DNA of 64,000 nt from Isurus oxyrinchus (taxonomy: Eukaryota). Below are positions 16,368 to 56,916 of this stretch, piece after piece; within the stretch, counting starts at the first letter, position 1; each line of letters begins with the position of its first letter. The notes under the pieces are model-generated. The model ran no database searches. It saw only the letters and a list, made by a program, of their open reading frames with translations, and was not told where the DNA came from. The DNA lies in the NCBI GenBank assembly GCA_026770705.1, contig JANJGN010000026.1:3162001-3226000 (forward strand), read 5' to 3'. A program made the position numbers and the translations under genes.

Positions 16368-16406
<39 letters not shown>

Positions 16407-27828: not shown

Positions 27829-29320
27829 ATGCATGCTCGTGTAAACGGTGTCGTGTTTGCCATCTACTACCCAGTATTTGCAGCTTTTGCTGTTTCAGGC
27901 AAGGGACCACAGTTCAGTGTGTATTGCATAAGTCTCGAGCTACTTACATTTTGCATAAAATATTACACACTGCATTGATTGTACATCTCATTGTTACTTT
28001 GAGGATTTCATTGTGCAAGTTTCTAGTTCAAAGTGTTGTTCCACCATGAAAACGTGTCTCCAAGCAATGTTTACTATACTAATCTTTAGTTTAGGTTATT
28101 TATGATTGGCAAGTAAGGGAGGTGTTTCTGTGCAAGGCTTTGCATCAGGTAAATAGTTGCTGCTGATGTATTAAAAATAGCTATACATTGTTTCATTGTT
28201 CATTGTTTCAGGCATTAATGTGCTGGGGAGGCTTTACAAGGGTCATTTATTGCCCATATATTTTAAGCCATGATTGTTGCAGCTAGGTTGCGACAGAAGG
28301 ATACTTATTTTAAAAAAATATCTGCTTAAGTTAACACTCTTCTAGGAACTGATGAATTCGTTGGACCAGTAAGGTGTAATTCAGCACTAATCCCTTTTTC
28401 TCTTCTTTCCAGGCAACTTGGTGACAATTATGATCCTGTCCCGAGGAAAGTGTGGCCTCTCTGGATGTATCACGCGTTACCTGGTATCTATGGCAGTGTC
28501 AGACCTGCTGGTCATTATCACTGGGGTAATCTTGAACAGGATACGTGGTATTTATTTCCCAGTTAGTCTTCTAAGCACCACTCCAGCCTGCAGTGCAATC
28601 GCTGTCCTGATTTATGCAGCCAGAAACAGTTCAGTCTGGTTGACAGTCGCTTTCACCTTCGATCGTTGTGTTGTCATTTGTTACCAAAATCTGAAAAACA
28701 AATTTTGCACAGAGAAAACAGCGGCTGTGGTTGTAGGGACCGTCTGTGCTTTCAGCTGTATTAAAAACGTACCCAGTTATTTTATCTATGAACCACTGTT
28801 TGTAATGAACAATGTGCCATGGTTTTGCAACATCAAGTCGATATATTATGCTTCAACTGGCTGGGCAGCATATGACTGGCTGGACCGTATTCTTACCCCA
28901 TGTGTACCTTTCGTTCTAATTATTATATTCAATGTTGTGACCATCAGGCACATTCTAGTAGCCAACACAGCCCGCAAGAGACTCCGGGCCCAGAGTGATG
29001 GAAAGAATCTGAGTGACCCCGAGATGGAGAGCCGGAGAAAGTCTATCATTTTACTGCTGTCTATATCAGGCAGCTTCATCCTGTTCTGGATGGTATATGT
29101 TATAAATTTGGTATATGTGCGAGTTACAAACAGTAAGTATTCAGCGGGCACCAATTTAACTGACCCAAGGTCCATTCTGCAAGAAAGCGGATATATGCTA
29201 CAACTGTTCAGCTGTTGCACAAACACGTGTATTTATGCAGGGACACAGAGTAAATTCAGAGCGGAGTTAGTGAATGCTGCAAAATCTCCATTTAAACTCA
29301 TCCCAAAAATGATTAAATAG
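27829..29320 (+). CDS. GPR139-like: Class A (rhodopsin-like) orphan GPCR, GPR139/GPR142-like shark-expanded family; join(27829..27898,28413..29320), 325 aa
   Basis: Exon 1 MHARVNGVVFAIYYPVFAAFAVS splices in phase 1 (CAG|GCAAG donor, ttctttccAG acceptor) to GNLVTIMILSRGKCGLS. Seven hydrophobic segments; TM1 GN, TM2 MAVSDL, TM3 FTFDRC, TM6 FILFW, TM7 NTCIY, helix 8 SKFRAEL; open to TAG at 29318-29320. Family member, not claimed to be the GPR139 ortholog. Confidence 0.88.
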
Positions 29321-34479: not shown

Positions 34480-34700
34480 CGAGGGATGTGGGCGCCGCTG
34501 GCTGAGCTAGCATTTATTACGCAACCCTAATTGCCCCCTGAGAAGGTGGTGGTTTGCTGCTGTCTTGAACCGCTGCAGTTGATGTGATGCAGGTACCCCC
34601 ACAATGCAGTGAGGGAAGGATTTCCAAGATTTTGGACCAGAGGCAGTGAAGGAACAGCGTGGAAAAGTGCTGTCAAAGGAACCTTGGCGCACGGCTGCAA
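34480..34700 (-). mobile_element. LINE 3' tail fragment
   Basis: Reverse complement of the family tail (gggatgtgggcg...ccctaattgcccc...aaccgctgcag). Confidence 0.7.
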
Positions 34701-37700
34701 GGATTCTTGCAGATGAGTCACCCTGCTGCCACTTTACATGTTGCCAGCCAAGCAGGAAACTTTATCCTGGCTCCTTGCTCCAGTTAATCCACCTCCCTGA
34801 TCCCCATGTGCCTCCAATTCAGATCTCGTGTGCATTGTCAATTTTCTTTCTTTCATGGGATGTCGCTCCAAAATTTCCATTTAACTTATACCTTTCCAGG
34901 CCATGGTGGAAGGCAGTTTAAACTCAGACAAATTGGTGTGGATCTGGAGTCTCATGTCGCCCAAGACATGTAAGGATCTCAGATTTCCTTCCTGAAGCGT
35001 CATTAGTGAACTATATCTTTTTAACGGCAATCAATTATAGTTTTCTGGTCACTATTAGCAAAGCTATCATTAATATTACTAGTTCATTGACATCACCACT
35101 ATGCCACCATCTTGCTATATCCACTAATAGAGTATGTGACTTCAGCTCTCCGAACATTAAGCTCCAGAAATGTATTATTAACTCTGTACACTACTTTAAC
35201 CTATCTCTGCTACTTCAAGAAGTGCTTTAAAGCAACGTTATTTTGCAAAGCTTTGGGTTAGTTGACTTGATAGGATCTTACTTGACTTGGCATCAGATGT
35301 TGTCTGATTTTGCTCCTATGAAGCTCGCACGATTAATTTGCTGTAAAACTGGAACTTCTTGTTGTGCAGTGAACTATCGATATCTGCAAATTCCAAAGGT
35401 CGCATTCGGAGATATGCATTGACTTTGAAATTATCCTCGTACTTTTTTTTTAAGTTACCTCTTGTATCATTGATATTTTCCTGCCTTCTAAGTCAGATGA
35501 TTGTGGGTTCGATCTCCTTTCCACAATTCTGCCATTTGATCGAGGCTCATAATGCACCCTAACAGTCTGAGGGGTGCTGAAGTCTCAGTGTTGCTGGGTT
35601 TTAATTGAGTGGCTTATTTTTGGCCCGATCCGAGAGTTCAGGTGCATGTTGAAGATTCCATGGAGAATTGCAGGAGCAGTGATATATCCCAGAGTCTATT
35701 AAATGTATTCTGGCCAGAAGCAGCATTGTTTAGACTGGCTTCGTATTTGCTCATTTTATTTTCTTTATTGGTATTATTTTAGCTTAATTGGATATGGAAT
35801 CAGACAATTTAAAGTGTAATTATTTCCCTGTGGAGTGTATGGGAAATACTGACTCTGTGAAAGGTGACCTATGAAGCAGAGTATGTCTTTCTTGCCATGA
35901 TCGTCAACCTGGCTAAACTCACACAATTTAGCCACTGTCACAGCACAGAGAGAGCAGGATCTGTCCGTATATCCAATGTGAAGCAAAGGCACCGAGAGTT
36001 GATTATTCAAAGAGAATCTCAGTCTGCAGTAAATCAACTGATCGGATTTGTGTCACCAATAATGGCACTTTCATTTTTCCCCCTTCCTAAGTGTATCAGG
36101 CCACTATTCTGTGCAGCCTGTTGAAAAAAAACGCTGAAGCTAATGGCGAGGTTTGAAAGATTGTTAGTAGGCCTCCTTACCAAGCAGTCCACAAACAATA
36201 ATTACACTCTGAAAAAGAACCATTAAAGTTTCAATGGGCAAAAAAAAAAATACATGACAATCAAGTATCATTGCATGGTTTACCGACTGGACAGTGCAAT
36301 CTGGCGTAGCTTTCTTTTGTACCTGGTGGTTCTGAGTGAAGCACAGGGCAGGAGTCCAACAATTCATTAATCGTTGCTATGCCATCTCAGCCATGTCATG
36401 GAAAAATGTATTTGTGGTCATGTCAGAGAATATGTGTCTAGGTGATGTACCTGCCATGACTGACTGACACAGAGTTAAGCAAATCTTGCTCAGTCTTGGA
36501 ACAGCCAATAGGTGGAGCTGCTCTTTTGTGCTGTGGGATCGTTCCATGCTGGGAAACGTCTCGCTGAGTGAAGGATGCAGTCTCCCAATGGACCGGGTAG
36601 CTATCCATGCTGTGAGCTCACAGAGTAGTAGTCAGTCCGTCACAGAAGGAGGCTATTCGGCCCATGATTCCTGCAGCGAGTCTTGTTGAAGTAGTCATCT
36701 GTGTATATTATCCTCAATAGCCCTTCTTTGTACACACTCAGCTGCACCAAGTTATTGAATGCAATTTATATCCATGCTTCGCACAGTCTAAATCTTTTAA
36801 TTATCCCAGCATGGTTCACTTGCGATGACTCAAGCCCAGATGAACAGCATAAATTGCTGCTCTTGCTTAAGTGAAGATCTTTCCATCGGCTGCCTGATCC
36901 AACAATACACCTTCAGCTCCTATTGATGAAAGGCGCATGGCCGGGTATAGTTCAGGATAGAGGAGGTATAGCAGGATCAACACTCACTTTCCAATTGCAA
37001 AATTGAATGATCTTGGTTAGTTGTCAGGAATATGATATTGTTCAATTCAATGAGCTCGCGTACACAAGAAGCAAGCATTCCAGGATAACAGTGAATTTTT
37101 TACATGACAAAGTTTACTCTGTTGTAGGACAGTTACTCGTAAAATTATGATGCTTCTGAATTCACTAAAGCCACATGCGCTCCATCCAACTAGAAATACC
37201 AGCCAGGGTGCGACAGGTTGCAGAATTAGGGACTTGATAGTAGTGACACCTTCAGGGGGTTGAGGGAATTGTTAATGTCATTTTTAATCCAGCCGCTCAC
37301 AGTTCTAACCCACAGGGTAACCACCCCTATGGTGTTACTATGGCAGAATGCTGGAGCTGCCATAGGAAATATACGATACAATGTATTACAGATTTCACAG
37401 AATTTTAATAACCAAATAAACAGAGAATTGTAACCATAATGAATCACAATAGTCGTAGCGAGCCTGATGGGATGTCAATGCTGACATCATCAATAGCAAC
37501 AAAATCTGATGACAGTGGGGAAAGGCTAACGTCGCTGTTCAGATTATATTGTCAATATATATGCACGTTAACTGGTTAAAATACTGTGGAATCATTTGTT
37601 TGTACCGGCGACTAACCTTTTCTGTAAAATGTCAATAACTTCTGAAAGGCAAACATAAACCGCGCCAATCAGGCACAGCTGAATCTTGAGCTAAAATGTG

Positions 37701-38155: not shown

Positions 38156-38313
38156 AAACCCCTCAAATAATGGAAGGTCTGGAAGACCAATTGGTAGAGG
38201 AAGGCGGATCAGAAAACTTCGACGAGGATGTAGGCACTGCATCAACTGTAGTCACTTTCGTCAACTTGTTTATTCTCAGTATGATGTATAGCTCATACTT
38301 GACAGTCCTTAGG
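38156..38313 (+). CDS. Immunoglobulin heavy-chain transmembrane exon (TM1), isolated; IgNAR/IgW-like
   Basis: Phase-1 acceptor (ttctAG) and phase-0 donor (AGG|GTAATG), as in IgH TM1 exons. Acidic spacer (E)TPQIMEGLEDQLVEEGGSENFDED followed by ASTVVTFVNLFILSMMYSSYLTVLR, matching the antigen-receptor TM (CART) pattern TF..LF.LS..YS...T. Confidence 0.8.
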
Positions 38314-38387
38314 GTAATGACAGCTCACAATAGTACAGTGAAATTGTGTAACTTTATTCAGAACTTCACTTGGCACTCCCCCAGACA

Positions 38388-38681
38388 GTAGTGGCGTCGT
38401 GGTTTTCTCACTGGACTGGTAACCCAGAGGTCCAGGTTTCGAACTCCACCACAGCAAATGGTAAATTCAATAAAACACCTTGGAGCAGAAGTTGAAAGAT
38501 GACCATGAAATCATTGTTGATTGTCATGAACACATATCCTATTCACTAATGCCCTTGAGGGAAGAAATTGTGCTGCCCTCACTTGAACAGACATGTGGTT
38601 GACTCTTAGAAATGCCAACTGAGCAAGGGCAATTAGGGGATAGACAATTAGCAACGCCCACATCCCAAGAGCGAAAAAAAA
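38388..38681 (+). mobile_element. tRNA-derived SINE
   Basis: A box tggcgtcgtgg, B box ggtttcgaactcc; 3' tail gggcaattagggga...gcccacatccca + A-run shared with the LINE family. Confidence 0.8.
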
Positions 38682-40989
38682 TCACGCCCACCTCAAAGTG
38701 CCCCTGCCTGTGTGATCCCCGCCTCACTGGGCCTGACTGCAGTCTCAACCACACGGCTGCAGCAGAGTGTTCTCTTTCATAGGATGAACCTAACATCAAT
38801 GTTCCCTTCCCCAGATGTATCTCGCCATTGTCACAGCCCAATCCACACTGCTGCACCGTGACTGCCTTGACTCACCAGTGCCTCTCGCATACTGAAACAC
38901 TCAGCCGCACATCACAGGTACCACTCCCAGTTTGAACCACCAGGAAGATCCCTGTCCCAGGCTGCAGCAAAGATTCTCCACCTCAGCAGCCCCGGCCCTT
39001 GACTGGAGCAGATTTTTTTTCACATCACCAGTCCAGACTGGACCGCACTGTATCTCCTCACCAGTCCCTACCCCAAGATATCACAAACACTCTCCATCTC
39101 ACTGGTCACTGCCTTTGACTGAACTCGACTTCCTCAAATCACCAGTTGCTGACCTAGTGTGAACAACATGGCCAAACCTCTCTGGCGCCTGCAGCAGAAT
39201 AGAGCAACTTTCCGGTCGATAGGCCAGGAAGCAACATCCGCCGCCCAGCTTACCAAAACTTAAAGGCAGTGTTAAAGTGCTGGAAAGACGACATTTAGCC
39301 TCCATCCCCAGTAACCCAGAAAAAAGCGGTGCCGAGGGAAGCAATATACAATGCTGTGAACCCATTCAATAGGGCTTAAGATTCAATTGGATGTATTTTA
39401 CTGCAGACACATAGAGGAGAAACTGACTAGGGAACGTCCGTTCAGACCACTGCAGGCAATTAATCAACCAACTGATACTAGTCACAGATGTTTTCTTTAT
39501 AAATATTTTACCAAAGCAGACCTACACGTTTCCAGAATTATTGACATGACCTTTTCAAATGTGTGTCATATAATTTGTCCTAGCTGCATCTGAATTATTC
39601 TTCCCCGATATTAATAACGTGTACAATAAGGATTCTGTATAATTTAATAGCGTCCTCATTTTCACGCATAAACTTACTGAGTTCACTGCTAGTTAGCTTC
39701 TGTAATGAGGTTGTAGCATTGCGGTGGCAGTGTTTTTTGAAGGCACAAATCCGTAACTTTTCATTTATAATGTTGCTCCAAATACTATGATCCTTTCCCC
39801 ATACACAATTTTTCAGCCAGTTCTCGCTTTTTGTCAGAACATTGGCTCTACCAAAATGGAAAGCCAGCCTGGCCTGCATGGCTGCCACCGTGAAGTGCAT
39901 TCCTCTTCATTACAGTGTAAGTGAGTGTTTAATTGAAGCCTGCCATTCCAAATCCATCGGTCCATGCCTCCCTCACCTGCCCGTAATATTGAGTAACTTT
40001 TGCATGCGTCATTCATGGCACTAATTGTAATGTCAGTGAGATTCAACAGCGGCGCCAACCCTCAACCTAGTATCACAGTCCCAGTTACTTCCGCTCCTTA
40101 TGATACGTTTTTTTGGACAGAACGGAAATGTTACCTGTGTTGGGAAGATCCAATTATTTCCTGAAGATACCTTCGCTTATAATGAACACTGGTTGTAACT
40201 TATAACCGGTAAAACTTCGGCGCCTGATTGAACACACACCCCTTTCTGGCATTGGGCTTTTCATCGAAACAGGCACCCCAGAGCAGCACAAACAGAGTGC
40301 TGTAGTGCCCCTTAACTTTGTGATAAGGTGTTAAACTGAGGGCTAATTCAAAGTGGATCTACAATTCCCCATGGCGGAAGGTTGGATGTTTATCTTCACC
40401 ACCTAACAGAACATAACTTGTTATTCCTTAGAAATCCTACACCATTGACTCAAGAGAGATAGGTAAATATGTTTAAAGAGGCTACTTGAAAACATGTGCA
40501 TGTGGCAAATTCAGTGACACTGGCATGAGTTCACCCTGAGAACAAAACACTTACAATATTATCGACGGAGTTTACAATATCCGCAATAACTTCATCCTGA
40601 TTGTACCTGTAATTCTTTCTTCCTGACAGCAGCAACGACATTGCTGACCAGAGTCTGAAGATCACAGAGAACTCTGCACTTTTCTGGAATGTATTGCCGT
40701 TCAGTATGATTTCATTCAGTGTGCACATTAGTTTACGGTGAAATGCGAACCTGCTGAATGCATAATACGGTTAATTAGAGGCAGCAGTGTTGCTGGAGAG
40801 CTATACGATTCCAATTGTTGGAGAGAAAGGAGTTCAGTGATGAGTCGAAATCAGATTCGCAACAATTGGTGGGAAGAGTGGTGTGAAGGGTTGGAACAGA
40901 GTGCGGCAGTGAGATCCCACAGGCCACTTTGTCTTGGGCTGGTGGCATATTTATATGTTCCGGGGGGCTGGGAAATAAAAAAAAACAGA

Positions 40990-41335
40990 TAAATATATTA
41001 TTGCATTGGCATTGCGCTTTTCATGACCACCAGCCCCCTCAAAGCTCTCTGCAGGCACTGACACACTTTTGTAGCGTTATCCCTGTTGTAATGTTGGAAA
41101 TGTCACGGCCAATTTGCGCAGTGCAAGTGCCAAAAAAACAGCAATTTAACAATGGCAGTGTAACCTGACTTTGTGACGTTTATTGAGGGACAAATGTGGG
41201 CCAGGACAGCGGGGATACCTCGCCTCATCTTCTTTAAAATGGTGCCATGGGATCTTTTAACTTCCCCCGGGATGGCACATGAGGCCTTCATTTAATATTC
41301 ATCCTAAATATGGCACCTCAGACAGTATATCCTTT
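40990..41335 (-). mobile_element. Deu-domain SINE (SacSINE1/AmnSINE1-like) remnant
   Basis: gccaggacagcggggata...gtgccatgggatcttttaac...ggcacctcagacagt resembles the reverse-complement DeuSINE core as I recall it. Confidence 0.6.
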
Positions 41336-41379
41336 GCTCAGCTCTCAGATTGAGTGACAGGCGTTATGTTTGCTTTTGT

Positions 41380-41730
41380 TATTATTTCACGGGATGTGGG
41401 TGCTGCCGGAAAGGCCATCAATTGTTACCCACTCCTCATTTCCCTTGAACTGCGTGCTTGCTAAGCCATTGTTGTAGCTCTTGACTCACATGTAAATCAG
41501 GCTGGGAAAAGATGGCGGGTTTTATTTCCTGATGGACCTTCAGGAACCAAAAGTGTCTTCATGATAATCGCTGATAGTTGTCATGGTCACCATTACTGAG
41601 GCTAGCTTTCAGTTCCAGGCTGTGTTAATCGAATTTAACTTCCACCAGCTCCCAGGGTGAGATTTCAACCCAACATTGGCTTGGGCATCTGGGTTACTGG
41701 TCCAGTGAGATAACCAATATGTCACCATCT
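41380..41730 (-). mobile_element. tRNA-derived SINE (same family as 38388)
   Basis: Reverse complement of head (ctgggttactggtccagtgag) and tail (gggatgtggg). Confidence 0.7.
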
Positions 41731-41984
41731 CACCGTCAAGACCTGTACTCAAGAGGTGGATTAGGACATGAAACGGGGACCTTGTGACTGGGAGGCGAGA
41801 GCGCTCCAAACTGAATCATGGCCTGTGAAGCTTTGGAAAAGAATGCAGCAGCTTCTGGCCCTGCTCAACATCTTGCAAGGCGCTGAGGATTGGCCATGCA
41901 CATCGCTGCCAAAACACCACTAACAGCCCAAACGCTACTTACATCGAGCTCACAACTATTGAAATATATGAAATATAAACGGAC

Positions 41985-42846
41985 GATCTAGCATCCATGT
42001 CCAAATACTGCAAGCCCTGGAAAATATCTGGCCTTGGGCTGACAAGTGGCCCATAACAATCGCGCCACATAAGTGTCTGACAATATCCAGCCACAACAAG
42101 AGAGAACCTAATCATCGTTCTGTGGCATTTATTGGCATTGCCATCGATGAATTCCCCACTATCAACATTCTGATAATTACCATTGACCAGAAACTGAACT
42201 GGAGCAGCCATATTAATACTGTCGCTACACGGGCGGAACAGAGGCTAGGAAACCTGCGTGAGTAACTCGCCTCCTGACTCCGAAAGCCCTTACAGCATCT
42301 ACGAGACACAGGCCAGGAGAGTCATGGATCTTTCCCCCTTTGCCTGGAAGAGTTCAGCTTCGACAACACAAAATAGGCTTGACTCTATGCAGAACAGAGC
42401 AGCCCGCTTGATTGACAAACAATCCACAAACATCCACTCCCTCCAGCACCAACGCACAATAGCAGCAGTATGTACTACCTAGAAGATGCACTGCAGTAAT
42501 TCACCAAAGCTCCTTCGACAGTACATTCCTAACCTACTACCATTACCATCATGAAGGACAAGGGCAACAGACACATGGGAACACAATCACCTGGGACTTC
42601 CCCTCCAAATCAATCATCATTCTGACTTGGAAACATATCATCATTCCTTCACAGTCAATGGGTTAAAACCCTGGAACTGCACCCTCCCCCACTCCTTCAC
42701 CCCTAACAGCACTGTGGGGTTACCTGCACCAGATGGACTGCAGCGGTTCAAGAAAACAGCTCACCAACACCTTCCCAAGGCCAATTGCTGATGGGCAATA
42801 AATGCTGGCCTACTGAGCGATGCCCATATCTTATGAATGAAAAAAA
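41985..42846 (+). mobile_element. LINE 3' fragment (same family as 5234-8775)
   Basis: Matches ~8000-8775; ends gcccatatcttatgaatgaaaaaaa. Confidence 0.8.
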
Positions 42847-42961
42847 TGCAAGTTGAGAGGTAATGTTCGCCTGTTTGCTAACATTTGGTCATTTCGTATC
42901 AATTGGTCGTGAATGACCAGATTTTTTTCTCACTCCTGCAACAACACTAAATGTTGCCAAC

Positions 42962-43638
42962 ATCAATGTGTTGGCTTGCTGCATTGTTCCAGTGAAGCCC
43001 AACGCAAACTGGAGGAACAACACCTCATCTTCCGACTAGGCACCTTACAGCCTTCCGGTCTGAATATTGAGTTCAACAACTTTAGGTCGTGAGCTCCCTC
43101 CCCCATCCCCACCCCCTTTCTGTTTCCCCCTTTTTCCCTTTTTTTCTCTTCCCTATAAATTATATAGATTTTTCTTTTCCCACCTATTTCCATTATTTTT
43201 AAATATTTTAAAATCTTTTATGCTCCCCCCACCCCCACTAGAGCTGTACCTTGAGTGCCCTACCATCCATTCTTAATTAGCACATTCGTTTAGATAATAT
43301 CACCAACTTTAACTTTAACACCTATGTGTTCTTTTGTACCATTGTTGCTGACATCTTTTGATGATCTGCTTCTATCACTGCTTGTTTGTCTACACAAGCA
43401 CCTCTGTCTCTCTCTATCTCTCCGCCCCCCCCCCACACACACACCTTAAACCAGCTTATATTTCAACTTTTTCTTGGACTCGAAATCAAGTTCTGTCGAA
43501 GGGTCATGAGGACTCGAAACGTCAACTCTTTTCTTCTCCGCCGATGCTGCCAGACCTGCTGAGTTTTTCCAGGTAATTCTGTTTTTGTTTTGGATTTCCA
43601 GCATCCGCAGTTTTGTTTTGTTTTTATCAATGTGTTGG
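42962..43638 (+). mobile_element. 5'-truncated Penelope-like element (GIY-YIG C-terminus + 3' terminal repeat) with 13-bp TSD
   Basis: Uninterrupted VGLLHCSSEAQRKLEEQHLIFRLGTLQPSGLNIEFNNFRS* (42970-43092); flanking direct repeat atcaatgtgttgg at 42962-42974 and 43626-43638. Confidence 0.85.
43489..43527 (+). ncRNA. Minimal type I hammerhead-ribozyme-like motif in the Penelope terminal repeat
   Basis: Stem I AGTT/AACT; core CTGTCGA(A); stem II GGGTC-ATGAG-GACTC; GAAAC-GTC. A6 of the CUGANGA core is U. Confidence 0.55.
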
Positions 43639-43964
43639 GTTTGGATTATGGGAACAGACATCCCAGTTGATTAATACTTCTTTCCACAAATATGCTCAAT
43701 AACGTGTATGCGAGCCCTTCTCGAATATCTCTACATCCAAAATAACAAAACATTTTATCTACTCAGTGTCTGCAAGGTGAATAACTCTATCCACTAGCAC
43801 TCGACACCAAGTACAAACAGCACACATTCATTCCTGCCGCAGTTGCAGTACTAACACTTCACACTGAGGAGCTCAGGGGTTAAAATACAACTCCAGAAGC
43901 TTCAGCACTTTTTCTAGACTGACGATCCATTGCAGTACTGAGGGATTGCAAACTTTCCGATCAG

Positions 43965-44960
43965 AAGGAATTTCTTCTCTCAGAGGGTGGTTAATCTGTG
44001 GAAGATTTTTAACCAGTAAGGGAATCAAGGACTATGGAGAAAAGGCAGGGAATGCATTTGAGGATTATCAGATCGGCCATGATCTCATTGAATGATGGAA
44101 CAGACTCGATGAACCGAACGGCCTATACCTGCTGCTACGTCGTATGGAAGTGAAGCAAAGGCCTATTAACCCTCGTTAGTCATTCTGTCCATTAAGTCTA
44201 AGCCCACTTTCCATGGAGCAATGCAATCCCATTTCTCCCTTTATCCACTTAATACTACAGCTTAAATTATTTCAAGTCCCCATTGACTTTCCTTTTGAAA
44301 TCATCATTGGTCCCTGCTTCCAGCACCATTGTGGGCAGTGGGTTCAGGCCCTTGCCACTCGCTGCATTGCAAACATAATGTGTTCCTATCATTTCTCCTG
44401 CGTCTTTTGCCCAAAACCTTGAACTTCTGCCTGATAGTTCCTTTCCCATCAAATAATCTGGAAAAGCCCTGGCCTGCCGCCTCCAAACATGCTATAATTT
44501 TTCACAATGGTATCCCTTCTCAATCTTCTAGGTGCCAAGAACCCCAATTTCCCGAACCTAAACTTGTGGCTAACATCCTTCAACCCCGCCCCCGCCCCCC
44601 ACCCACCCCCCACTCCCCAGCCCTAAATCCCTGCAATCTTCCTGGTAAATCCTCTATGCACCTTCTCAGGGACCATGAAATTCTTGCTAACATGTGATGG
44701 CTGGAACTCGATGCTATATTTTAGTTGTGGTCCAACAAGATCTGTGCAATTTCCATGTTTCTGAACACAATGTTTCTCTTTCTGAATGTCAAGATCCCAT
44801 TGCTTCGCAATGCAATTCAGTCTCTCAGTAAGTCATGTTACCTTCAAAGGCTAATGCACATGCACCCTCAGGACCCTCTGCCCCTGCGCACTATTGAGAA
44901 CTTCGCCACGGTATTGATATTGCATTTCCCTACCTCTTCTGCCTAAACACATTCCCCTAC
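43965..44960. mobile_element. Degenerate CR1 fragments (3' end on + at ~43965-44150; - strand remnant ~44150-44960)
   Basis: aggaatttcttctctcagagggtggttaatctgtgg...atcggccatgatctcattgaatgatggaacagactcgatg is a CR1-type 3' end. Confidence 0.6.
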
Positions 44961-45352
44961 ATTTCCGCTTGCTGCTTTTATCAAATGCTGGGCAGGAATA
45001 ATTTCAGAATCAACAACTTGCACACTGTTCTCAACATTAATAAACACTGCACTAATCTATCTGATTTGTTAATTGAATTTAAAGTGCACCAGCTGCTATG
45101 TTGCAATTTGAACCAATGTCCCCAGAGCATAAGCCTGAGCCTCTGGTTTATCAGTCAAGTGAGTTTACCATTACTGCAGTGCCTATCTCCCCGGCCCACC
45201 AAAAGTCCATTATATTATGCCATCGCAGTAAGAAATAGGGAGGCATTCCATGCTAGTTAATAAAATTTCCATTCACAGATTTCTTTATTTGTCACTTTCA
45301 CAGAATAATATAATCATGGAATTCTAAATCCTCCAATCTCACGTACGCCAGT

Positions 45353-45388
<36 letters not shown>
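45353..45388. repeat. (TC)n microsatellite
   Basis: Direct observation. Confidence 0.9.
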
Positions 45389-48300
45389 AAAGATATTCAA
45401 GAATTTCCACTTACCTCCACTTTACCGACACCTCTGCAAATATTATTTTCTAATTATATATCCAGTTTTCATTTGAATCATACTGTTGCATCTGCTTGCA
45501 CTACCATTTCAATCCAAACCACAGCACACTATATAACAAAAATAATTTGGCCCCTTGCTCTCTGTTTCTTTACCATTTATTTTGAATTTGCGTTCCAACA
45601 TTACTTACCCTCTTGCAAGTGAAGCGCTTAATCTTTTTCGAGCCTATCCAAAGCTCTAATCATTTTGAGCATCTTGATTAAATCTCCTTGTAACCTTTTT
45701 TATAAGAAGAACAGGCACAGGTTTCCTAATCTCCCCACAAAATTGAAATCCATAACCGTTGTTAAATCTCAGTTTCGAAACATTGATATTGTTCCTAAAT
45801 TGTGTACCTGGAATGAAATGCAAAACTGCAGCGGATGCATAATCATTGATTGATAAAAAAGTTAGTGGAAATTCTGCTGTGATCTATAACTATTAATAAA
45901 ACCAAAGATCGCTTTTACCCTATGAACAAACTCCTCACCTTGTGACTGTTCTTTAAATATTTACCTCCGTGAATCCCTGGACCACTTCTTCCTGTCCCCT
46001 CTTCAAATTGTATCCCCGCATGTTACACCCTATTTTGTAGCACAACATTCCGCCAAAGCAGCCCCTTGGTAGAAAATAGTGTTTGTGTCATCAGCCGATT
46101 GTGTCATTAATAGTCATCTTCACCTTCTTGGAGATTTCAGGCGTGACATTGTTCCATTGCACCTTTCGGTACTTCCTGCTTGCCGTCCATCTGTGCGAAC
46201 CTGCTCCAAATTTACATGGTTCACAAGAAAGCGGCACAGAAATATCAGTGTGAGTTGCAGGTGTTAAAACTACTGGACATTGGGCGGCTTCGCCCCCAAT
46301 TTACATATTTTAAGTTTTTTTTCAATACCAGCAGAAAATCAGTAATAAATACTTAGTCGTAAGTTCCGCCTTGCCTTAAAAATGATAATATAGACTTGTT
46401 CGATCAACTCAGCTGAAGTGAGATTAATTAATAGACAGTAACAATAGTTGTTAATATGTGGGTTTACTTGCGTGTCTGTAAGCAAATATAATCATTTATG
46501 ACCTAACCTTTAGGTGGAAAACGCCATCAGTATGCTGAAAAATAGTGTTCAGTTCCCCGAATGCAAGGTACTCACCCGTAACTGAGCACGGATAAGCAGC
46601 CATCTGGCTCATCTCGGTAAATTGTCACGTAGAGCAGAACAATACAAGGGCTGCTATCGATAAGAGATTGAATTAAAATTTCTGATTCTATTGTGATAAT
46701 TTATTGCAAATTCTTTGATCGATTTTCAAGTAACAAATATTTGAATCTTCATCAGGATGTGCTTCCTGCTAATCCGCTTTTAAGCGCTCGCATGTATTTC
46801 GTTCAGCTGTGAAATGTGTTATCCACTATCTTCAACTATTTTGCACAAATAAATTGCGGAACCGAGATGTTTACAATGTTATTTTTAGTTCTCTCCTCCA
46901 TATTTGGACCATGATGTCAACCTGTTTTGAGCGCAATTTCTGGCTGAGAACTTGTGTGAGAAACTGAATCAATATTCAATATTTGGTTTGCAACGTCAAT
47001 GTCCCAGATATGAGCAAAAACGTGCAAAAGCTGAGATAACTCCATCCCAGAGATAAGGGCACGACGTAGAGCAGTTTGCGATGTATGACATCGTCTTAAC
47101 CCGTCTCTACCTAAAGTCAACGGTATTTTAATAAATTGAGAGGAGTGTTCTGAAGGGTGGCTGAAGTGGGGGACAGATTATCATTACCAGTTTGCAAAAT
47201 GGAAAAGAGGAGATAATGGCAACTACATGAAAGGAAAAAGTCAGTTCCTTGTTTTAGTTCCTTATGATACTAGAGCTGCGGGTTATTAGTGACATCGGGG
47301 CGAACCCCGCCTGTGTGTTGCGGTGAAGGTCAACGGCAATGATTGGCTGAACTCAAGATTGCTCAATTCGTTGTGATATGTTTATGTATGTGCGTGTTTC
47401 TGTCTGTGTGTGTATTTATAGATGTGTGCGTGTGTGTGCGTGTGGAGTAATAACTGGTATTTACGTAAAATAATGTACTTCCATTTCTATAGCACCTTTC
47501 CCCACCGTATGACACTTGAAATCATTTCACAGGCATTGAGCACTAATTGTTTAGTCGCTGCAGTGTAAAGTGCACGTGTATAGGTAATGTTCACGCCTCA
47601 GCACTTAAGTTAAGCAATTGCATCGCCTTTCATTTGGACTTCCGTTCGTTGATTTGTGTTCCTGAAACAACATGCATAAATCAAAGGTGCATTGGAACTT
47701 GGGCACTGTAAGATTATCCCCGGGATTAGCACTAATTCGGGCTGTGATTGTAGCCGGTTCCTTACTTGGTCCTCACTTGAAAGCTGATTATTTCTTGTAG
47801 GAGATTTAAAGGCAGTGACCTCACATGGAACCTGAATCCAGCTAGAGTGATCGGACTTCAGAGAACATGAGGAACATATGATCTGGATTAATATGGTTGT
47901 TGACGTTGACGTTCGGGTTCCACGCACGGCACAAATTAACTTAAAATCCCAGACATACGTTAATTGGCTGGCGAATCGTTGTCAAGCGCCTCTTACCCAA
48001 ATGTCAGTAAAACTTCCCTGTCCAATGCGAAACCAACAAGGGGTGGCACTAGTTCTGGTGGGGAATTCGGGAAATTTAGACTTCGTGTCAATATGAAAAA
48101 AATAAGGGTATTCGTTATGTTAGGCATGCCTTTGCCAAGTGTGTCAATATAACAGTTACTGGAGTTAGTAATGACGAGGCTGATATCATTCAGCCAGACA
48201 GGAAACAAACGAAAAAATGAAAGAATTCTCTTGATTCACCTGTGCTTATAAACCCCAGCAAACTCTTGCACCATTTACAGATTTTACTTCCACATCCCTA

Positions 48301-49919
48301 CCAGACGATCATTCCATGGATTTCTTATTTTTTAGTATATAAAGGTTCTATCTAACATCAGTCCTAAACGCGCGCCTTTTACGAGTTTGTTCCTGGGTTT
48401 CATTGACATGCACTCAATTTAAATTGGCTCTCCGGCTTAATCTTTTCTGTTACGTTCGTAGATTCGCGTCATTCATAGGTCAATAAATTCAGAATTTTCT
48501 GATGTCTGTTAATATTCTGATCCTCTGACTGTAGAAATCTCCTCTGTCACGACGCCTGGCACCATTGCCAGCGCTTGGAACTTACTGTTGTATCACAACG
48601 ACCCGAGTTAAAATCTAGATTCAAAGCCTGGCCTGAAATGTTCAAGATGTCAGGTTAACTCAATAGGCTTAGAGGACTAGCCTACCAAGGTGGCGGGATG
48701 GATTAGAAAGCATTACTTTATCAAACAAGGCTCCGACTTCTACGAAATTTCCAGGAAACAGTGTTCACCTTCAGCACCAACCAAGATAGAATGGCTTGGG
48801 TGACGGAGAGGAATCAACCACTATTAACCACAATGGTAAGAAAATAGGAAGCATTTCTCTACCAAAGTGCCAATCTCGCATCCGATTTTCCGCCTTTGGC
48901 TGGCTGAATTATGCCCCATAATGTAAAGACACAAACTCGGCCCCTACTCCCATCCATTTCAGCTTCCTCATCATCCTCGAGGGAACGCATTCCATATCAT
49001 TATCTCAATATTAATTGCTCGTATTGTATTTAATTTATCCTAGTCTTATCCTAACTACCCCCCCAGTAATCTACTAATTGGGTGGTTAAATAATTTCCAA
49101 TACATTTCTTCTGCGATCTGGGCCAGCTTGCACTCCTTTCTGAATTTAGATCGCTTGAATAATGTAGGAAAATTGACCCCCATCCTTGGGCATCCCATCT
49201 TTTTTAACATTAAATGACAACCCTAACTAGTATTGAATACTTACCGTACTTCATCGAATTGCTACGCCATTTTCAACTTCTATCCATGACACTAATGAAT
49301 ATTATAGCTTAGGCAGGTGCAAAGTGGGCTGGCGAATCGTTGTCACTAGGTTTTTACCCAGCAGTCAATAAAACTTCCATCCCACAATTCTTTAATCCAC
49401 TGCTACAGCCTTTGATGTGGAACCTCATGGAAAGCTTCTGTTGAAACTAGGTGCACTTCATGACCAGGCTGTCCAACATCCACTGTTTGTGTAATTTCCT
49501 CACAAAATGTATTTAGCTGAGAAGATCTGCTATGACACATGAATCTATTACTAATAACTGTAAACTGGTACAAAACTGAGTCGAATTTTGCGTTACCATG
49601 TTCTTGAAAATTGTCATTAAACCACGTTTTCATTTTTCAATCCTGAAGTGTTTCCACGGATTCACTCATTATAGCATCTGCATTGGGAGCTACATCTTTC
49701 TTGCACTGAGTGCGATTGTGTGTGCAATGGCTCTCCCTAGAAACTTATTGCTTTGGGTATCTACAGCCTGTATAGAAAGCGACATAAAAATGACAAGGTC
49801 ATCATGATAGATTTAGAGGATATGTAGTGACTTGCACAAATGATGATTCAGTTAATTTTGTTCTTGGGTTTTGAAAGTGTTGAAAATCTGCAATATAACA
49901 GGCTTATCAGCAATGATAA

Positions 49920-50700
49920 TGCCTCTGTATAAAAGGCACAGTGACAGACTGGGTCTGAAGTTGGATGAGTGACAGATAAGAGGCAGCAGTGCTGAATGAT
50001 GACTTATTTTTCTAACTGGAGGAAAGCATACAACAGGGCTCTCCAGTAGCAGATATCAGGAGAACTTGTTTCCTTGATATATATTAAGGACGTGGATTAG
50101 GGTTTGCAAGGAAACAATTTCAAAATTGACACCTATTGCAAATCCTAGAAGTGTTGTAATCTTGTTAGAAGGATGGCCATCGATTTGAAGAGGACGTGGG
50201 CACACTGGTGGAATAGGTGGACAAGTGATAGATGTAACTTACTTTAGACAAGATTGAAGTGGTAATTTTTGGCAGGAAGAACGAGGCGAGGAAATGAAAA
50301 AATAAGGACACTTTCTTCCGGGGAATGAAGATACAGAGGGACCTGGGGATATATGTGCATAAAACAATTGATGCAACAGGACAAGTTGAAAATGTGGTTA
50401 AAAACGTATAGCTGATCCTGGCCTTCATAATTAGAAGCATATGGTGCAAAAACAAGTAGGTTGTCATAAGCCTTTGAAAAAAGGTTTGACAATAATTGGA
50501 ATATTATGCTCAGTTCTAGGATCTGCACATTCATAAGGATGAGGAGGCATTAGCTAGGGCACCGAAGCGATTTTGAAAAACGGTTCCAGAGATGAGATAG
50601 TTCCGTTGTACAAGTGGTTTGAAGAAACTGGGGCTGTTCAACTTGGAGAAAGGAAGGACGAGAGCAGATCTTATAGAAGGGTTCTATAGTATGGACAAAC
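49920..50700 (+). mobile_element. Highly degenerate CR1 ORF2 3' fragment
   Basis: Colinear with the RT C-terminal part of 22565-23799 (e.g. gagggacctggggatatatgtgcataaa). Confidence 0.65.
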
Positions 50701-51039
50701 TGAAATCTTTACGTGCGGGAGCGAAAAACAAATGAGTGCATTAGGGGGTATTCTTTCCATGAATCAAATGCAATGATTGTAACCAAATCATTATACAACG
50801 ATTTCAGTAAGACTGTTTCAAACTTGGGTATGTGGTAGAATACAAGAGCACAGAAGTGTGTTAGTAGAGAAACAAAGTAGATACATCCAGGAATGTGTTA
50901 TTTGGTGTTTTGAGCCTGCTCCGCAATTCTACAAGATCATGTACTTGTATATCAACTTCCCCCTCCATAATCTATCCACCAATTCTTTGATTCCATAGTG
51001 GAAAATATCTATCTTTCCCAAAATTCCTAACCTCAGCTT

Positions 51040-51202
51040 TTATTTATTCGTTCATGGGATTTTCGTGTTCCTGGCTAGGACATTATTTATTACCAATCCA
51101 AAGTTGCCCTTGAGAAGGTGGTGGTGAGCTGCCTTCCTAAACCACTGCAGTCCATGTGGTATAGGTGCACCCACAGTGATGTCAGGAAATGATTTCTACC
51201 CA
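51040..51202 (-). mobile_element. LINE 3' tail fragment, split by the CR1 insertion (continues at ~53743-53795)
   Basis: gttgcccttgagaaggtggtggtgagctgcc... resumes as gattttgacccagcgacagtgaagga. Confidence 0.7.
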
Positions 51203-53745
51203 AACTAAGCCACGCAGGTAGAACTTAAAAACAGAACAGGAGCAATCACATTGCTGGAAGTAGAGAAATAGAAGAGCAGATATATATAGACAAATTTCAG
51301 AGAAGTGTAAAACTAATTGGGTAGTAATGGAGGGGGATTTCAACTTCCCCAACATTAAGTGGTTTAGTCATAAGTTTAGAGGTAGTGGAATTCTTAAAAT
51401 GCATCCAGGAGAGATTTTTAAATGAGTACGCAGAAGGTCCTGGGCTTACTTTTAGGGAATGAAGCCAGGCAAGTGGTAGAGGTATCAGTGGGGGAATATT
51501 TTGTAGATAGTGATCAGAACTCCATTAGATTCAAGGTTGTTATAGAAAAGGACAAGGATGGGGCAGAAATCAGAGTTGTAAATTGGAGGAATGCCGATTT
51601 TAATAAGATCAGATATGATTTTGCCAGAATGGATTGGAAGCAGCTACTTTTAAATAAATCTGCGTCAGAGCAGTGGGGATCATTCAAGAAGGAAATAGGG
51701 AGAGAACAGGGTCAACATATTCCAGTAAAGACAAAGGGCAGGACCAAAAAATCATGGGAACCCTGGATGTCGCAGGATATACCGGATTGGATAAAGAGGA
51801 AAAAGGAGGCTTTGGGCAGATTCCGAGGGCTCAAAACAGCAGATTCCCTAGAGGAGTATAGAATGTATAGGGGGAACTTATAATGGAAATTAGGAGAGTA
51901 AAAAGGGGCATGAAAAAACAGTGGCAGGTAAAATGAAGAAAAATCCAAAGTTATTTTACAAGTACACTTAGAGCAAGAAGATAACTAGGGAAAGAATAGG
52001 GCTCATTAAGGGCCATATTGGTAATTTATGTGTGGAGCCGGATGACCATAGGTAGGGTTCTAAATTAATACATTGTGTTGGTGTGCACAAGTGAGAGGGA
52101 CAACGTGGGTATGGAAATCAAGCAGAATGACTGTGATATGATCAAAGAAATTAACATAGAAATGGAGGAGGTTCTAAGTGGTCTGGCAGAGTTAAAAGTA
52201 GATAAATCTCCAAGCTTGAATGAAATATATCCCAGGCTGTTAAATGAGGCAAGGTAGGAGCGCGGGCAATAATTTTATAACTGGAGGACTGGAGGACAGC
52301 CAGTGTGCTACTGCTATCCAAGAAAGGAGGAGGCGATAAACCAGGGAACTACAGGCCGATCAGCCTAACAACAGTGGTGGGGAAACTAATGGAAGCAATT
52401 TTGAGGGGCAGGCTTAATCTACACGTGTAGAGGAAGGGATCAATCAAGGACAGTCAGCATGGTTTTGTTAAGAGGAGGTCATGTCTGACCAATTTGATTG
52501 AATTTTTCGAAGAGGTGAGCAGGTGTGTAGGAGAGGGCAATGCATGTGGGGTCTACTTGGACTTCAGCAAGGCTTTTGATAAGGCTTCCCATGGGAGACT
52601 GATAACGAAGATAAGAGCCCATGGGATCCAAGGCAATTTGGCAAATTTGATCCAGAATTGGCTGAGTAGCAAGACGCAGAGTTTGATTGTCAAAGGGTGT
52701 TTTTGTGACTGGATGCATGTGTCCGGTGGCTTTCCTCAGGGCTCGGTGTTGGGTCCCTTGCTGTTTGTGGTATATATAAATGATTTAGACTTGAATGTAG
52801 GAGGGCTGATCAGTAGGTTCGCGGGTGACACGAACATCGTTGGGGTGATAAGTAATGATTAGGATAGCTGCAGTTTACAGGAGGACATAGGCGGGATTAT
52901 CAGATGGGCGATCAGTGGTAAATGGAATTTGATCCAGATAAGAGTAAGGTGGCGTACTTGGGCAGGACAAACAAGGCACGGGAATACAAGATGAATGGTA
53001 GGACCCTGGCAAGTACTGAGGATCAAGGGCACCTTGGTGTACATGTCAACTAGTCCCTTGCTGTAGCGGGACAGGTAGATAAGGTGGTTAAGAAGGCATA
53101 TGGGATACTTGCATTTGTTAGCCAAGGCACAGAATATAAGACAGGGAGGTTATGCTGGAAGTGTATAAAGCACTGGTGATGTCACAGCTGAAGTAATGTG
53201 TGCAGTTCTGGAATCCGCATTATAGGAAGGATGTGATTGCACGAGAGAGAGTGCACGTTAGATTTACCAGGATGTTGCCTGGGCTGGAGGGTTTTAGTTA
53301 TGAGGAGACATTGGATAGACTGGGGTTACTTTTCTTGGAGCAGAAGAGATTGAAGGGGGACATGATTGAGGTGTTTAATATTATGAGGGGCATAGATAGG
53401 GTAGACAGGAAGGAACTTTTCTCCTTGCTGGAAAGATCAATGACAGGGGCAATAGATTTAAACTCAGGGGCAGAAGATTTAGGAGGGATTTGAGGAAGAA
53501 TTCTTCTCACCCAGAAGGTTGTGGTAACCTAGAACTCGCTGCCTGAAAGGGTGGTAGTGGCATAAACCACCATAACATTTAAGAATTATTTGGATGGGCA
53601 CTTGCGATGCCATGGCATACAAGGCTATGGCTTTAGTGCTAAAAAATAGGATTAGAATAGTGAGGTATTTGTTTGGCCGGCGCAGACTCGAAGGGCCGAA
53701 GGGTCTTTTTCTGCGCTATAGACCTCCATGATTCTGTGACTGTGA
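51203..53745 (+). mobile_element. 5'-truncated CR1 LINE, ORF2 (endonuclease C-part + RT) with stops and frameshifts
   Basis: MEGDFNFPNI, DSDQNSIRF, YLDFSKAFDKASH, GFPQGSVLGPLLFVVYINDLD, RFAGDT; 3' attctgtg tail. Confidence 0.92.
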
Positions 53746-56389
53746 TTTTGACCCAGCGACAGTGAAGGATCGGGGATATAGTTCCAAGCCAGGATTTTTA
53801 TTCTCTAAATGAAGATTTTTGTTTTTTAAACATCACAGTATTAAATGACCGGCCACTTACCGGAGAAAATGTATCCCAATTCTAGACTGTCCCAACAGAA
53901 ACATTTTAGCATTTACCCTATAAATCTCCCTAAGAGGGCTATTGTTTTGTCTTTCAATGCAATTACCTCTCAATCCCGAAACTTCAGAAAGTATAGGCTA
54001 AATTTATTGTTATATGAAATTCCTCTCATAACTGAAACAAACTAGCGAACGTTAGATTCACTCCCACTAGGAGAAGTATATCTTTCCATTAGACCGGAGG
54101 CATAAACAGCACACACTGCTCCAGACTTGGCCTCACCAATGCCCTTGATTAATTCCATCCACGGTGAAAATATATCGACAGGCACTAGACGCGTTCAGCA
54201 ATTTAAAATTCAGAGGGAAAACCGCGGAGTGAATGGACATCGGTTTGTAAATTGGTTCACTTTATGACTTCCGCTCCCACCCGGGAAGACGTCCAGCCGT
54301 CAAGAGATACTGGCCAATCCACTGGCCGGCAACTCTCCAATGCCAGCTGCAGAAACTGGTGGAGCGCCGACGGCTCCGACTGCAGCCAGTGCCCAATGGA
54401 ACGCAGAGCTGGAGCCGGATAAGAATTTGAGTGGAGAGGGGTGCGGGAGGCGGTGTGAGCCCGAGGTTTGCGGGTGAGTAAATTGGGCTTGTGTGAGTGT
54501 TTGTTGTGAACCGTGATCGGGAGGACAGGGAAATTTTGAATTTAATTCCATTATTTAAAATGGCTGGAAGAGAATACGCAAGAAACTGTAGGCCTTGAGT
54601 TCATATCTAGATAGATATATGTATCAGAGATTATTAGGAATGATGAGAAAGCAATTTTCCATGTTGCACTTAAACTTACATCGAGGGTTGTCCATTTTAG
54701 ACATAACATACTCCACAGTTTATTCTAGTCGCATGTAAAATGGTAAACATGTTATTAAGCAATATTCATCATTGTTGTATCTGCCTATCTACTCTTAATA
54801 GATCGGTTAGCTGTACAGTATCTTTGCTCGTCTACATTTAGTTATCTCTGTTGAAGTCTAATATTGTCCGAGAATTTACTATAAACTCCGAAATATTAAG
54901 AAGGAGATTGAAAAGCAAATTTGGAGCCAAATTACAGAAAGAACATATGATTACATTGTAGTAACAAACGGGACTTCAATTATCATAATAGTGGCAATGT
55001 GAAGTGCGAAGAGGGAGACGAATTCCTGAAATATGTATAATTTGTGTTGCCAACTCACGAAGAAATGGAGCAAAGTTATAAGTATGTACCCATTTGATAT
55101 ATTTATAACTTGGATGGGAGGTAGGAGAAAGAGTTGAGATTAAAGGATATGTATTCAGGTTGATAGGAGTTATACGTTGCTGCCGTGATCATTATGAATG
55201 GAAAACACTGCTGTTACTGCGAATGAATATTCGGTATATTTTTCGGCTTCCTTGTCCAGTATGGAGCCGAGCTTCGTTATGATTGTTGGAAGTGTACTGA
55301 TCCAGTCAAGAAGAGATATTTCATCACATTCCTTACTCGTACCTCGACGAAGGTTTACAGGCTTTTTGGGGGTTCGGGGTGTGGGGAAGTTGTCATGAGA
55401 TGAGTTACTCACCTCGGAATTCCCAGTCAATCATCTGCTTTATTTTGTATTTACTTTATATACATAGTTGGTCCAATTTAGTGTCTGATGAATGGTGATC
55501 CCCAAATTCTAAACTCGATGCTGTTATGATGATATTATGATTCCTGTGTCCGAAATATTTTCCCAGTGAAACATGCTCCGCTAGCAATATTTCATTTCCT
55601 TGAACGAGATCCATTGCAGCGCCCTTCCTTCTTGAGATGGAAAGACATGATTTGTACATATCTCATAAATTCCACTCCCTCTTTGCTCTTTACATTGCCA
55701 ATATCTTGGATAATGTTACAAACCGGCGGAAGTTAGATAATGTGGAGGAGCGAAGATATGACAGTCAAGCTTACGATTAATTAAAGACGTGTAGGCAGAT
55801 CGAAAAAACAAAGGAAATTGCTTAATTGTATGTTTACTGTTCCACATTTGGCTGAAATATAAAGGGGAGCGTGTTATGATTCAGTGGCACTGACCCTTAT
55901 AAGTTCAAGCGCACCGGGTCGAATAGCAATAGCAAGCATTTTTTAAAATAGATAATTCCATATTCTGTATTAAAACCGACGTGCACCTGCACAATTCGCC
56001 CCCAACACGCTCTGTGATTGAGCTATATAATGTCTAAGGCGGTAAGTCTTACTATGTTGAAGACAGTGTCTCGTTTGCCGTCCATTAGAAGGGAAATGCA
56101 ATAAGAGGTATGTAGTCATTTATTCCATAATACAGGTGTGGGCGGAGAAGTTGTGCAGACTTCTACATGTGAATGAATAAGGCTTCAAGGAATAACGTAT
56201 GTGTGGAACGCTGGGGAGCAACAACACCCACATATATCAAAACATTAACACTCAATGGCAGCAGCTCAACATTAAAGAAGCTCACTGATGAATAGTATTG
56301 TGTTAGAGGCACGCATTATCCTGTGCATCTAAATATAAAATACATTTAGCACACTGGAGCTCACGGGACATTTGTAGATATCTGGATAT

Positions 56390-56690
56390 GTGAGCATTTT
56401 AGAATTCTATTTCTGGTTTTCAAATCCCTTCATGACCTCACCCTTTATTATCTTTCTAATTTCCTTCACGCTTACTACCCGTCGAGATAAATGAACGCCA
56501 CCAAATCGGACCTGCTGTACACCCTCAATTTTAATCACTCCATAATTGTGCCTTTCGCGAGTAAGGCCCTGGGCTCTCTAATTCCGTCCCGAACCATCTC
56601 CACATTCCTACAGCTATTTCCCTTCTTAAGGCGATTCTTAATACCAAGCACACTGACCAAACATTTTTTTACATCTATCCAAATATCTCC
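56390..56690 (+). mobile_element. L2-type LINE 3' remnant
   Basis: ttttcaaatcccttcatgacctcacc...ttcttaataccaagcacactgaccaaacattt resembles an L2 3' region. Confidence 0.45.
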
Positions 56691-56694
56691 TCAT

Positions 56695-56916
56695 GAGAAA
56701 GCAAAATACTGCGAATGCTGGAAACCTGAAACAAAAACGGAGAATACTGGAAGCACTCAGCAGGCCTGGCAGCATCTGTGGACAGACAAACAGAATTAAT
56801 GTTTGGAGTCCATATGACTCTGAAGAAGGGTCCTACGGACTAGAAGCGTTAACTCTGTTTCTTTCTCCGATGCTGCCAGACCTGCTGAGTACTTTTTCAA
56901 CATTTTCTGTTTTTAT
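56695..56916. mobile_element. Palindromic (fold-back) Penelope-derived short element
   Basis: ctcagcaggcctggcagcatc...acagaattaatg is inverse-complementary to gcgttaactctgt...gatgctgccagacctgctgag; centre carries CTGAAGA-GGGTCC-TAC-GGACT. Confidence 0.75.

What the first reader, a model, noticed from the sequence alone, without database searches (positions are those of the whole stretch)
38156..38313. Orphan Ig heavy-chain transmembrane exon with intact frame and splice sites but no constant exons
Seen: a clean TM1 exon (acidic spacer + CART-type helix, phase 1/0) lies 8.8 kb downstream of a GPCR gene and 23.5 kb upstream of the VNAR leader. I find no Ig C-domain exon in the 38 kb upstream and no convincing VK* TM2 exon downstream. 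It cannot serve the downstream V-D-J in cis order. The helix has an unusual Asn (FVNLF). Inference: the 3' tip of a preceding IgNAR/IgW cluster left by partial duplication or deletion, or the end of a cluster whose very long intron nests the GPCR genes, or an exapted exon.
Basis: partly seen in the sequence, partly recalled or inferred. Interest (0 to 1): 0.7.

Follow-up and report, generated by a model that had tools for sequence, protein, structure and literature searches.

The report
Dead IgNAR membrane-anchor exon relic
This is a real but ordinary leftover: a 3.6-kb piece of a shark antibody (IgNAR) gene carrying the membrane-anchor exon, likely dead for tens of millions of years, whose reading frame is open here but broken by a stop codon in a close relative.

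Summary
The exon is real (38156-38313, AG/GT, open frame) and is IgNAR TM1: 82% identical to the 11 intact TM1 copies elsewhere in the genome. It lies in a 3.6-kb relic (about 34660-38362) made of C5-TM intron, TM1 and 49 nt of the next intron, fused at 38362/3 to the 5' flank of an IgNAR cluster. There is no C exon in 138 kb upstream. The relic's intron is 78% identical to all extant clusters, which are 89-99% alike, so it likely comes from an older, lost cluster. It is not the TM1 missing from the downstream cluster, a pseudogene that lost TM1 separately. A basking shark gene model shows the same GPCR-TM-IgNAR order. The two relic copies differ at 11 of 52 residues, like non-coding DNA (17 of 101), versus 4-5 of 52 for working TM1. 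In one run of a related organism the exon has a stop and Thr instead of Asn. An open frame is expected by chance about 45% of the time. Verdict: an ordinary pseudogene fragment.

The parts
38156..38313 (+). Relic IgNAR TM1 exon (acidic spacer plus TM helix), frame open, AG/GT intact in this genome
34733..38155 (+). 3' part of the IgNAR C5-to-TM1 intron, 78% ungapped identity to all extant clusters (measured over 34733-37600)
34483..34734 (+). Interspersed-repeat copy holding the left breakpoint; same family, orientation and register as the repeat inside the IgNAR C5-TM intron
38314..38362 (+). First 49 nt of the TM1-to-TM2 intron, then a sharp junction with about 1 nt of microhomology
   Evidence: junction spanned by contigs of runs X1, X4, X5
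38363..61774 (+). 5' flank of an IgNAR cluster, colinear with the flanks of other clusters (80-89%)
61775..61817 (+). IgNAR leader exon of the downstream cluster; splice donor reads TT where paralogues have GT
61945..62216 (+). VNAR exon of the downstream pseudogene cluster; RSS heptamer reads CACAATA where paralogues have CACAGTA
63546..63593 (+). J segment of the downstream cluster
27829..29320 (+). Two-exon rhodopsin-family GPCR gene (27829-27898, 28413-29320), a neighbour with its own stop codon; synteny anchor with the basking shark model

Best explanation
It is the membrane-anchor (TM1) exon of a shark IgNAR antibody gene, with 3.4 kb of its own upstream intron, and is likely the dead last piece of an older IgNAR cluster that once stood here. 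Shown: its identity, the limits of the 3.6-kb fragment, its greater age than the spread of today's clusters, and a stop codon in a relative's copy. Inferred: two breaks made it. On the right, a non-homologous join 49 nt after the exon fused it to the 5' flank of another IgNAR cluster and cut off its TM2 exon. On the left, recombination between two copies of a common repeat removed V-D-J and C1-C5. The exon was likely under selection while its cluster worked, and has drifted since about the split from the basking shark lineage. It would make no product: it has no C exons to receive a splice from and no TM2 of its own. Odds: dead relic of any origin about 0.9; this in-place, two-break route about 0.65.
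For: Identity: 11 intact paralogues at 80-82% aa, 10 of them about 5 kb behind an IgNAR C5 exon. Limits: homology to the C5-TM intron from 34733 to 38362-66, then to cluster 5' flank from 38363; the junction is the only full-length match among 40 scored candidates; three other clusters, including the divergent C126 one, are continuous across that point; the left end lies within a repeat shared in register with the intron. Age: 0.775-0.786 ungapped intron identity to 11 of 11 compared copies, which are 0.89-0.997 among themselves. Past selection: 5 replacement changes among 10 private ones, against 15.8 expected if neutral all along, P(<=6)=0.004. Present drift: window versus basking shark relic 11 of 52 aa, non-coding control 17 of 101 (Fisher p 0.52), working TM1 4-5 of 52; CAA to TAA at 38188 in run X5; Y-S-x-x-x-T becomes Y-N-x-x-x-T in basking shark (motif from PMC9860311 passages). 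Staying open: 0.45 by simulation at 0.05 substitutions per site with 0.05 frameshifts per substitution; the flanking intron gives 0.038-0.055.
Against: In this genome the frame, both splice sites and the Y-S-x-x-x-T motif are intact, whereas all 11 second-copy TM exons of the other clusters show a stop in the match (8 of 11 aligned). The exon (88%) is more conserved than its intron (78%), pairwise dN/dS is 0.34-0.44, and private changes are slightly short of replacements (p 0.045-0.10); known-dead second copies give a similar 0.42-0.47. The 11 versus 4 of 52 contrast is not significant alone (p 0.09). The stop was seen in one contig (depth 12) of one run; the table for the other runs was cut (66 rows not shown). 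The basking shark evidence is a predicted protein, not DNA. No trace of the older cluster's 5' part was found, so its former presence here is inferred.
Confidence: 0.65

Rival explanations
1. Equally dead, but copied in from elsewhere: the 3.6-kb piece was duplicated from a now lost or overwritten IgNAR cluster and inserted between the GPCR and the cluster flank.
For: No V, C or 5'-flank remnant was found upstream. C-less TM duplicates arise in this genome: C42:6224047 onward is a 99.97% copy that starts inside the C5-TM intron, and every cluster TM1 has a tandem second copy.
Against: It sits in the same orientation, exactly at the edge of another IgNAR cluster's duplicated block, and the sequence to its left is unrelated to the left flank of the other clusters; a plain insertion would leave that flank in place. 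The left end in a shared repeat fits a deletion.
Confidence: 0.25
2. The exon has been recruited into another transcript (GPCR read-through or an unknown upstream exon) and makes a small membrane peptide.
For: Open frame, intact splice sites and dimer motif here; mild excess of silent changes. NCBI's basking shark model splices the GPCR to this exon.
Against: Stop codon in run X5's copy; motif broken in basking shark; divergence at the non-coding rate. The window's GPCR has its own stop at 29320. The NCBI model also strings in sequence that is interrupted by a stop in this window and a whole IgNAR gene, which looks like a prediction artefact.
Confidence: 0.05
3. It is the TM1 exon of the downstream cluster, cut out and moved upstream.
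For: The downstream cluster is the only one of 11 C5-bearing clusters with no TM1 behind it.
Against: That cluster still holds its own copy of the intron stretch 34738-37601 (at window-equivalent 86148-89067, partly inverted), only 75-78% identical to the relic. The basking shark model has both the relic and an intact downstream TM1.
Confidence: 0.02
4. It is the working end of a distant upstream cluster whose very long intron holds the GPCR genes.
For: Intact splice acceptor with 3.4 kb of native intron.
Against: No C exon in 138 kb upstream; the nearest upstream IgNAR C5 found is 2.5 Mb away and has its own TM1; no TM2 of its own.
Confidence: 0.01
5. The junction is a mis-assembly among near-identical clusters.
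For: The clusters are repetitive, some 99% alike.
Against: Contigs of runs X1, X4 and X5 (two studies) cross 38362/3 without a gap; the relic is 22% diverged from every cluster; basking shark shows the same order. The left junction was not covered by those runs.
Confidence: 0.02

Closest known systems
IgNAR heavy-chain TM exon of elasmobranch IgNAR clusters (V-D-D-D-J-C1-C5-Sec-Tm; PMC8692893 and PMC5192425, passages read)
   Same: Exon size, phase, acidic spacer, helix and upstream intron; 80-82% aa to the genome's cluster TM1 exons.
   Different: No V, D, J, C or Sec upstream, no TM2 of its own; about 22% diverged intron; stop codon in a relative.
Incomplete IgNAR clusters (3 of 7 in white-spotted bamboo shark, PMC8692893 passages) and duplicated Ig pseudogene pieces (catfish IgH, PMC5192425 passage)
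   Same: Broken by-product of cluster duplication and loss.
   Different: Reduced to one exon; shared with basking shark, so old. No description of this particular relic was found in searches.
Dead second TM1(+TM2) tandem copies 18.4 kb behind each cluster TM1 in this genome
   Same: TM1 without its own C exons; similar pairwise dN/dS (0.42-0.47).
   Different: They lie downstream within clusters, start only about 460 nt before the exon, and all show stops or frameshifts.
Mammalian membrane IgM/IgG TM helix with the Y(small)xxxT dimer motif (PMC9860311 passages; PDB 7WSO, 8E4C)
   Same: F-x-x-L-F-x-L-S-x-x-Y-S-x-x-x-T pattern aligns (weak E-values 0.17-1).
   Different: Asn where human IgG1 has Thr; no ectodomain.

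Membership tests
IgNAR TM1 exon (homology) | Sequence closer to TM exons of V-C1-C5 IgNAR clusters than to other IgH classes | tested here: met
   80-82% aa to IgNAR-cluster TM1 versus 45% to the C88 (IgW-type) TM exons; cluster class from the 'immunoglobulin NAR' hits
IgNAR TM1 exon (homology) | Phase 1 acceptor, phase 0 donor, 158 nt | tested here: met
IgNAR TM1 exon (homology) | Y(small)xxxT dimer motif in the helix | tested here: met
   YSSYLT in the window; YNSYVT (not met) in the basking shark relic
Functional IgNAR cluster | V-D-J and C1-C5 upstream in cis | tested here: not met
   none in 138 kb upstream
Functional IgNAR cluster | TM2 (VK*) exon about 8 kb downstream | tested here: not met
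   intron broken 49 nt after the exon; only TM2 homologue is 57 kb away behind the next cluster; TM2 identified by motif and conservation, not by RNA
Functional IgNAR cluster | Open frame kept in orthologues | tested here: not met
   stop at 38188 in run X5; open in the basking shark model
Functional IgNAR cluster | Spliced transcript | tested here: inconclusive
   only contigs of runs guessed to be RNA were available
Ig pseudogene fragment | Divergence at the neutral rate since loss | tested here: met
   11 of 52 aa versus 17 of 101 for a non-coding control, protein level only, small sample

The most novel reading that the evidence does not exclude
In this one lineage the exon is still used: an upstream promoter or GPCR read-through splices into it, and on to the TM2 that the downstream pseudo-cluster kept after losing its TM1, giving an ectodomain-less IgNAR anchor peptide that could pair with CD79 and dampen B-cell receptors.
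Probability: 0.04. Interest if true: 0.65.

Novelty: new member of a known kind. Interest (0 to 1): 0.15.

Why it matters
Little for function. It is a dated marker of birth and death among shark IgNAR clusters: it records a cluster lineage older than the 11 present ones, and a rearrangement shared with basking shark. It is also an annotation trap, since it leads NCBI's basking shark model LOC144673922 to fuse a GPCR, the relic and IgNAR into one protein. It shows that an intact frame and splice sites in a slowly evolving shark genome are weak evidence of function.

Tried and rejected
Pfam gave no family for the TM peptide. PDB sequence search gave only weak membrane IgG/IgM matches (E 0.17-1.7). 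The look-up of sequencing runs: no RNA holder listed. Of the 14 runs listed, 8 were laid (X1, X4, X7, X8; X5, X9, X10, X12): no splice joint at 38156 or 38313 was listed, but these are contigs of guessed-RNA runs, tables were cut, and X9, X10, X12 had no cover of the exon at 94% likeness, so this is no evidence on expression. A GTAAAATGA 'VK*' at 51928 was rejected as TM2: it lies at the end of a repeat-derived frame and lacks the conserved TM2 context. 31500-34480 matched only scattered repeats at 65-81%. A second protein search found no further membrane-form IgNAR protein. Earlier findings: none returned. Paper searches: (listings); passages only were read in PMC5192425, PMC12227049, PMC8692893, PMC4034164 (no use) and PMC9860311; no supplements were opened, and figures of cluster maps could not be seen. 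No structure or complex prediction was run, as it would not bear on the question.

Full report
Observation. The exon is as described: AG at 38154-55, 158 nt, GT at 38314-15, an open 52-codon frame with an acidic spacer and a hydrophobic helix. The GPCR gene ends at 29320 and the IgNAR leader starts at 61775.

Identity. A search of the window's own genome (G000; window = C26:3162001-3226000) gave 39 matches among 40 scored candidates: the exon itself, 11 intact copies at 80-82% aa, 11 copies with a stop about 18.4 kb behind them, and 45-47% matches on C88. Three clusters read in full (C26:0.63-0.73 Mb, C42:1.02-1.12 Mb, C126:0.80-0.89 Mb) show V, C1-C5 and then TM1 about 5 kb behind C5; their class is IgNAR by the named protein hits. 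The C88 clusters have more C exons and are read here as IgW-type (label from my own knowledge). A conserved acceptor plus GTGAAATAG (V-K-stop) about 8.2 kb behind TM1 in two of the three clusters is the likely TM2; the third reads V-V-stop there.

Anatomy of the relic. Window 34733-38362 aligns with the last 3.4 kb of the C5-TM intron, TM1 and 49 nt of the next intron. From 38363 the window is colinear with the 5' flank of IgNAR clusters up to the V. The right junction has about one base of microhomology, is the only full-length match among 40 scored candidates, and the three other clusters are continuous across it. Contigs of runs X1, X4 and X5 cross it without gaps; I take these runs as DNA because they read through intron and junction, but their kind is not on record. 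The left end falls inside a common interspersed repeat that also sits, in the same orientation and register, in the C5-TM intron of the four clusters aligned. No C exon exists in the 138 kb upstream, and a C5 DNA search found no IgNAR C5 on C26 between 0.70 and 3.25 Mb (lower-bound search).

The downstream cluster. It is a pseudogene: leader donor TT, altered heptamer, C1 and C4 without their second Cys, a stop in C3, a frameshift in C5. It lacks TM1 because of a 1.6-kb inversion plus a deletion of about 1 kb at window-equivalent 87.5-89.1 kb, but keeps TM2 at 95218. The relic is not that lost piece: the cluster still has its own copy of intron 34738-37601, only 75-78% identical to the relic.

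Age and selection. Over 34733-37600 the relic is 0.775-0.786 identical to 11 of 11 compared copies, which are 0.89-0.997 identical to each other (the C42:6227k copy was left out because it starts later). The exon is 87-88% identical. dS to intact paralogues is 0.24-0.29, about the intron distance, and dN about 0.10. Ten bases are private against six representative copies, five silent and five replacing; neutrality over half the intron distance predicts about 16 replacements (P(<=6)=0.004), so the exon was constrained for much of its separate history, with an implied neutral stretch of about 0.05 substitutions per site. These are rough counts on 156 bases.

Relatives. The one protein hit for the paralogue TM1 was a basking shark model, LOC144673922. 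Its pieces map in order on this locus: 21827, 27664, the GPCR, a TM piece, V, C1-C5, and a second, intact TM. The upstream TM piece differs from the window's exon at 11 of 52 residues; model pieces that I treat as non-coding differ at 17 of 101 (p 0.52); working TM1 copies differ from the basking shark's downstream TM at 4-5 of 52 (11 versus 4, p 0.09). The basking shark relic has F-to-S and Y-S to Y-N changes in the helix; PMC9860311 (passages) gives Y(small)xxxT as the mIg dimer motif. In run X5 (organism A, 2-3% different from the window, species relation unknown) the single contig over the exon's 5' part has C to T at 38188, turning CAA into TAA, and 38264 reads C, giving Thr for Asn; the Thr is also in X1 and X4. 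Simulation gives 0.45 for keeping frame and splice sites at 0.05 substitutions per site and 0.05 frameshifts per substitution, and 0.14-0.20 at 0.10-0.12. Open in two lineages and broken in one fits drift.

Mechanism. Shown: identity, limits, relative age, absence of C exons and own TM2, stop in a relative. Inferred: an older IgNAR cluster stood behind the GPCR; a non-homologous join fused its TM1 to the 5' flank of another cluster, and repeat-mediated recombination removed its V-to-C5 part; the order of the two events is unknown. Insertion of a copied fragment is the main rival. Either way it likely makes no product. Against this reading: the intact frame, splice sites and motif here, the slight excess of silent changes, and the stop resting on one contig of one run. 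Expression could not be tested.

Comparison and novelty. Incomplete IgNAR clusters are known (3 of 7 in bamboo shark, PMC8692893 passages), and this genome has other C-less TM copies. Searches listed no paper on this relic, but most subscription papers are not held. It is a new example of a known kind, an Ig pseudogene fragment, of low interest.

Noticed in passing
window 61775-64000 and G000:C26:3226001-3257300: The downstream IgNAR cluster is a pseudogene (leader donor TT, C3 stop, C5 frameshift, lost Cys in C1 and C4) whose TM1 was removed by a 1.6-kb inversion plus about 1-kb deletion while TM2 remains.
   Followed up: yes
L013-L020, e.g. G000:C26:719613 and C42:1100950: Each of the 11 intact TM1 copies has a broken second TM1 about 18.4 kb downstream, from a tandem duplication that in the three clusters read also includes TM2; the window's downstream cluster lacks this duplication.
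   Followed up: partly
G000:C42:6224047-6252000 (L063, L088, L089): A second C-less TM1: a 99.97% identical copy of 6147605-6175559 that starts inside the C5-TM intron; very recent duplication or assembly duplicate.
   Followed up: partly
G000:C126:815000-890000 (L070-L077): Mosaic IgNAR cluster: 5' flank to C1 region only 66-79% identical to the other clusters, C4 onward 84-95%; its old 5' half is of similar or greater age than the relic's lineage.
   Followed up: partly
P0001 (basking shark LOC144673922): NCBI model fuses a GPCR, the relic TM exon and a full IgNAR into one 1113-aa protein; likely an annotation artefact.
   Followed up: partly
G000:C26:707965 region (L048): In this cluster the first TM2 reads V-V-stop instead of V-K-stop, while the tandem second copy keeps V-K-stop.
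   Followed up: no
G000:C88:532450 and 535871 (L078): IgW-type cluster with two near-identical intact TM1 exons 3.4 kb apart and duplicated C-exon pairs.
   Followed up: no
window about 8800-19000: About 10 kb of degenerate CA-rich simple repeat; a broken GPCR paralogue lies near 3000-3900 and more GPCR paralogues lie upstream of the window.
   Followed up: no
G000:C26:642600-644440 and C42:1025140-1029140: A 68-bp minisatellite of variable length lies about 115 bp left of the point where the window's cluster block begins.
   Followed up: no
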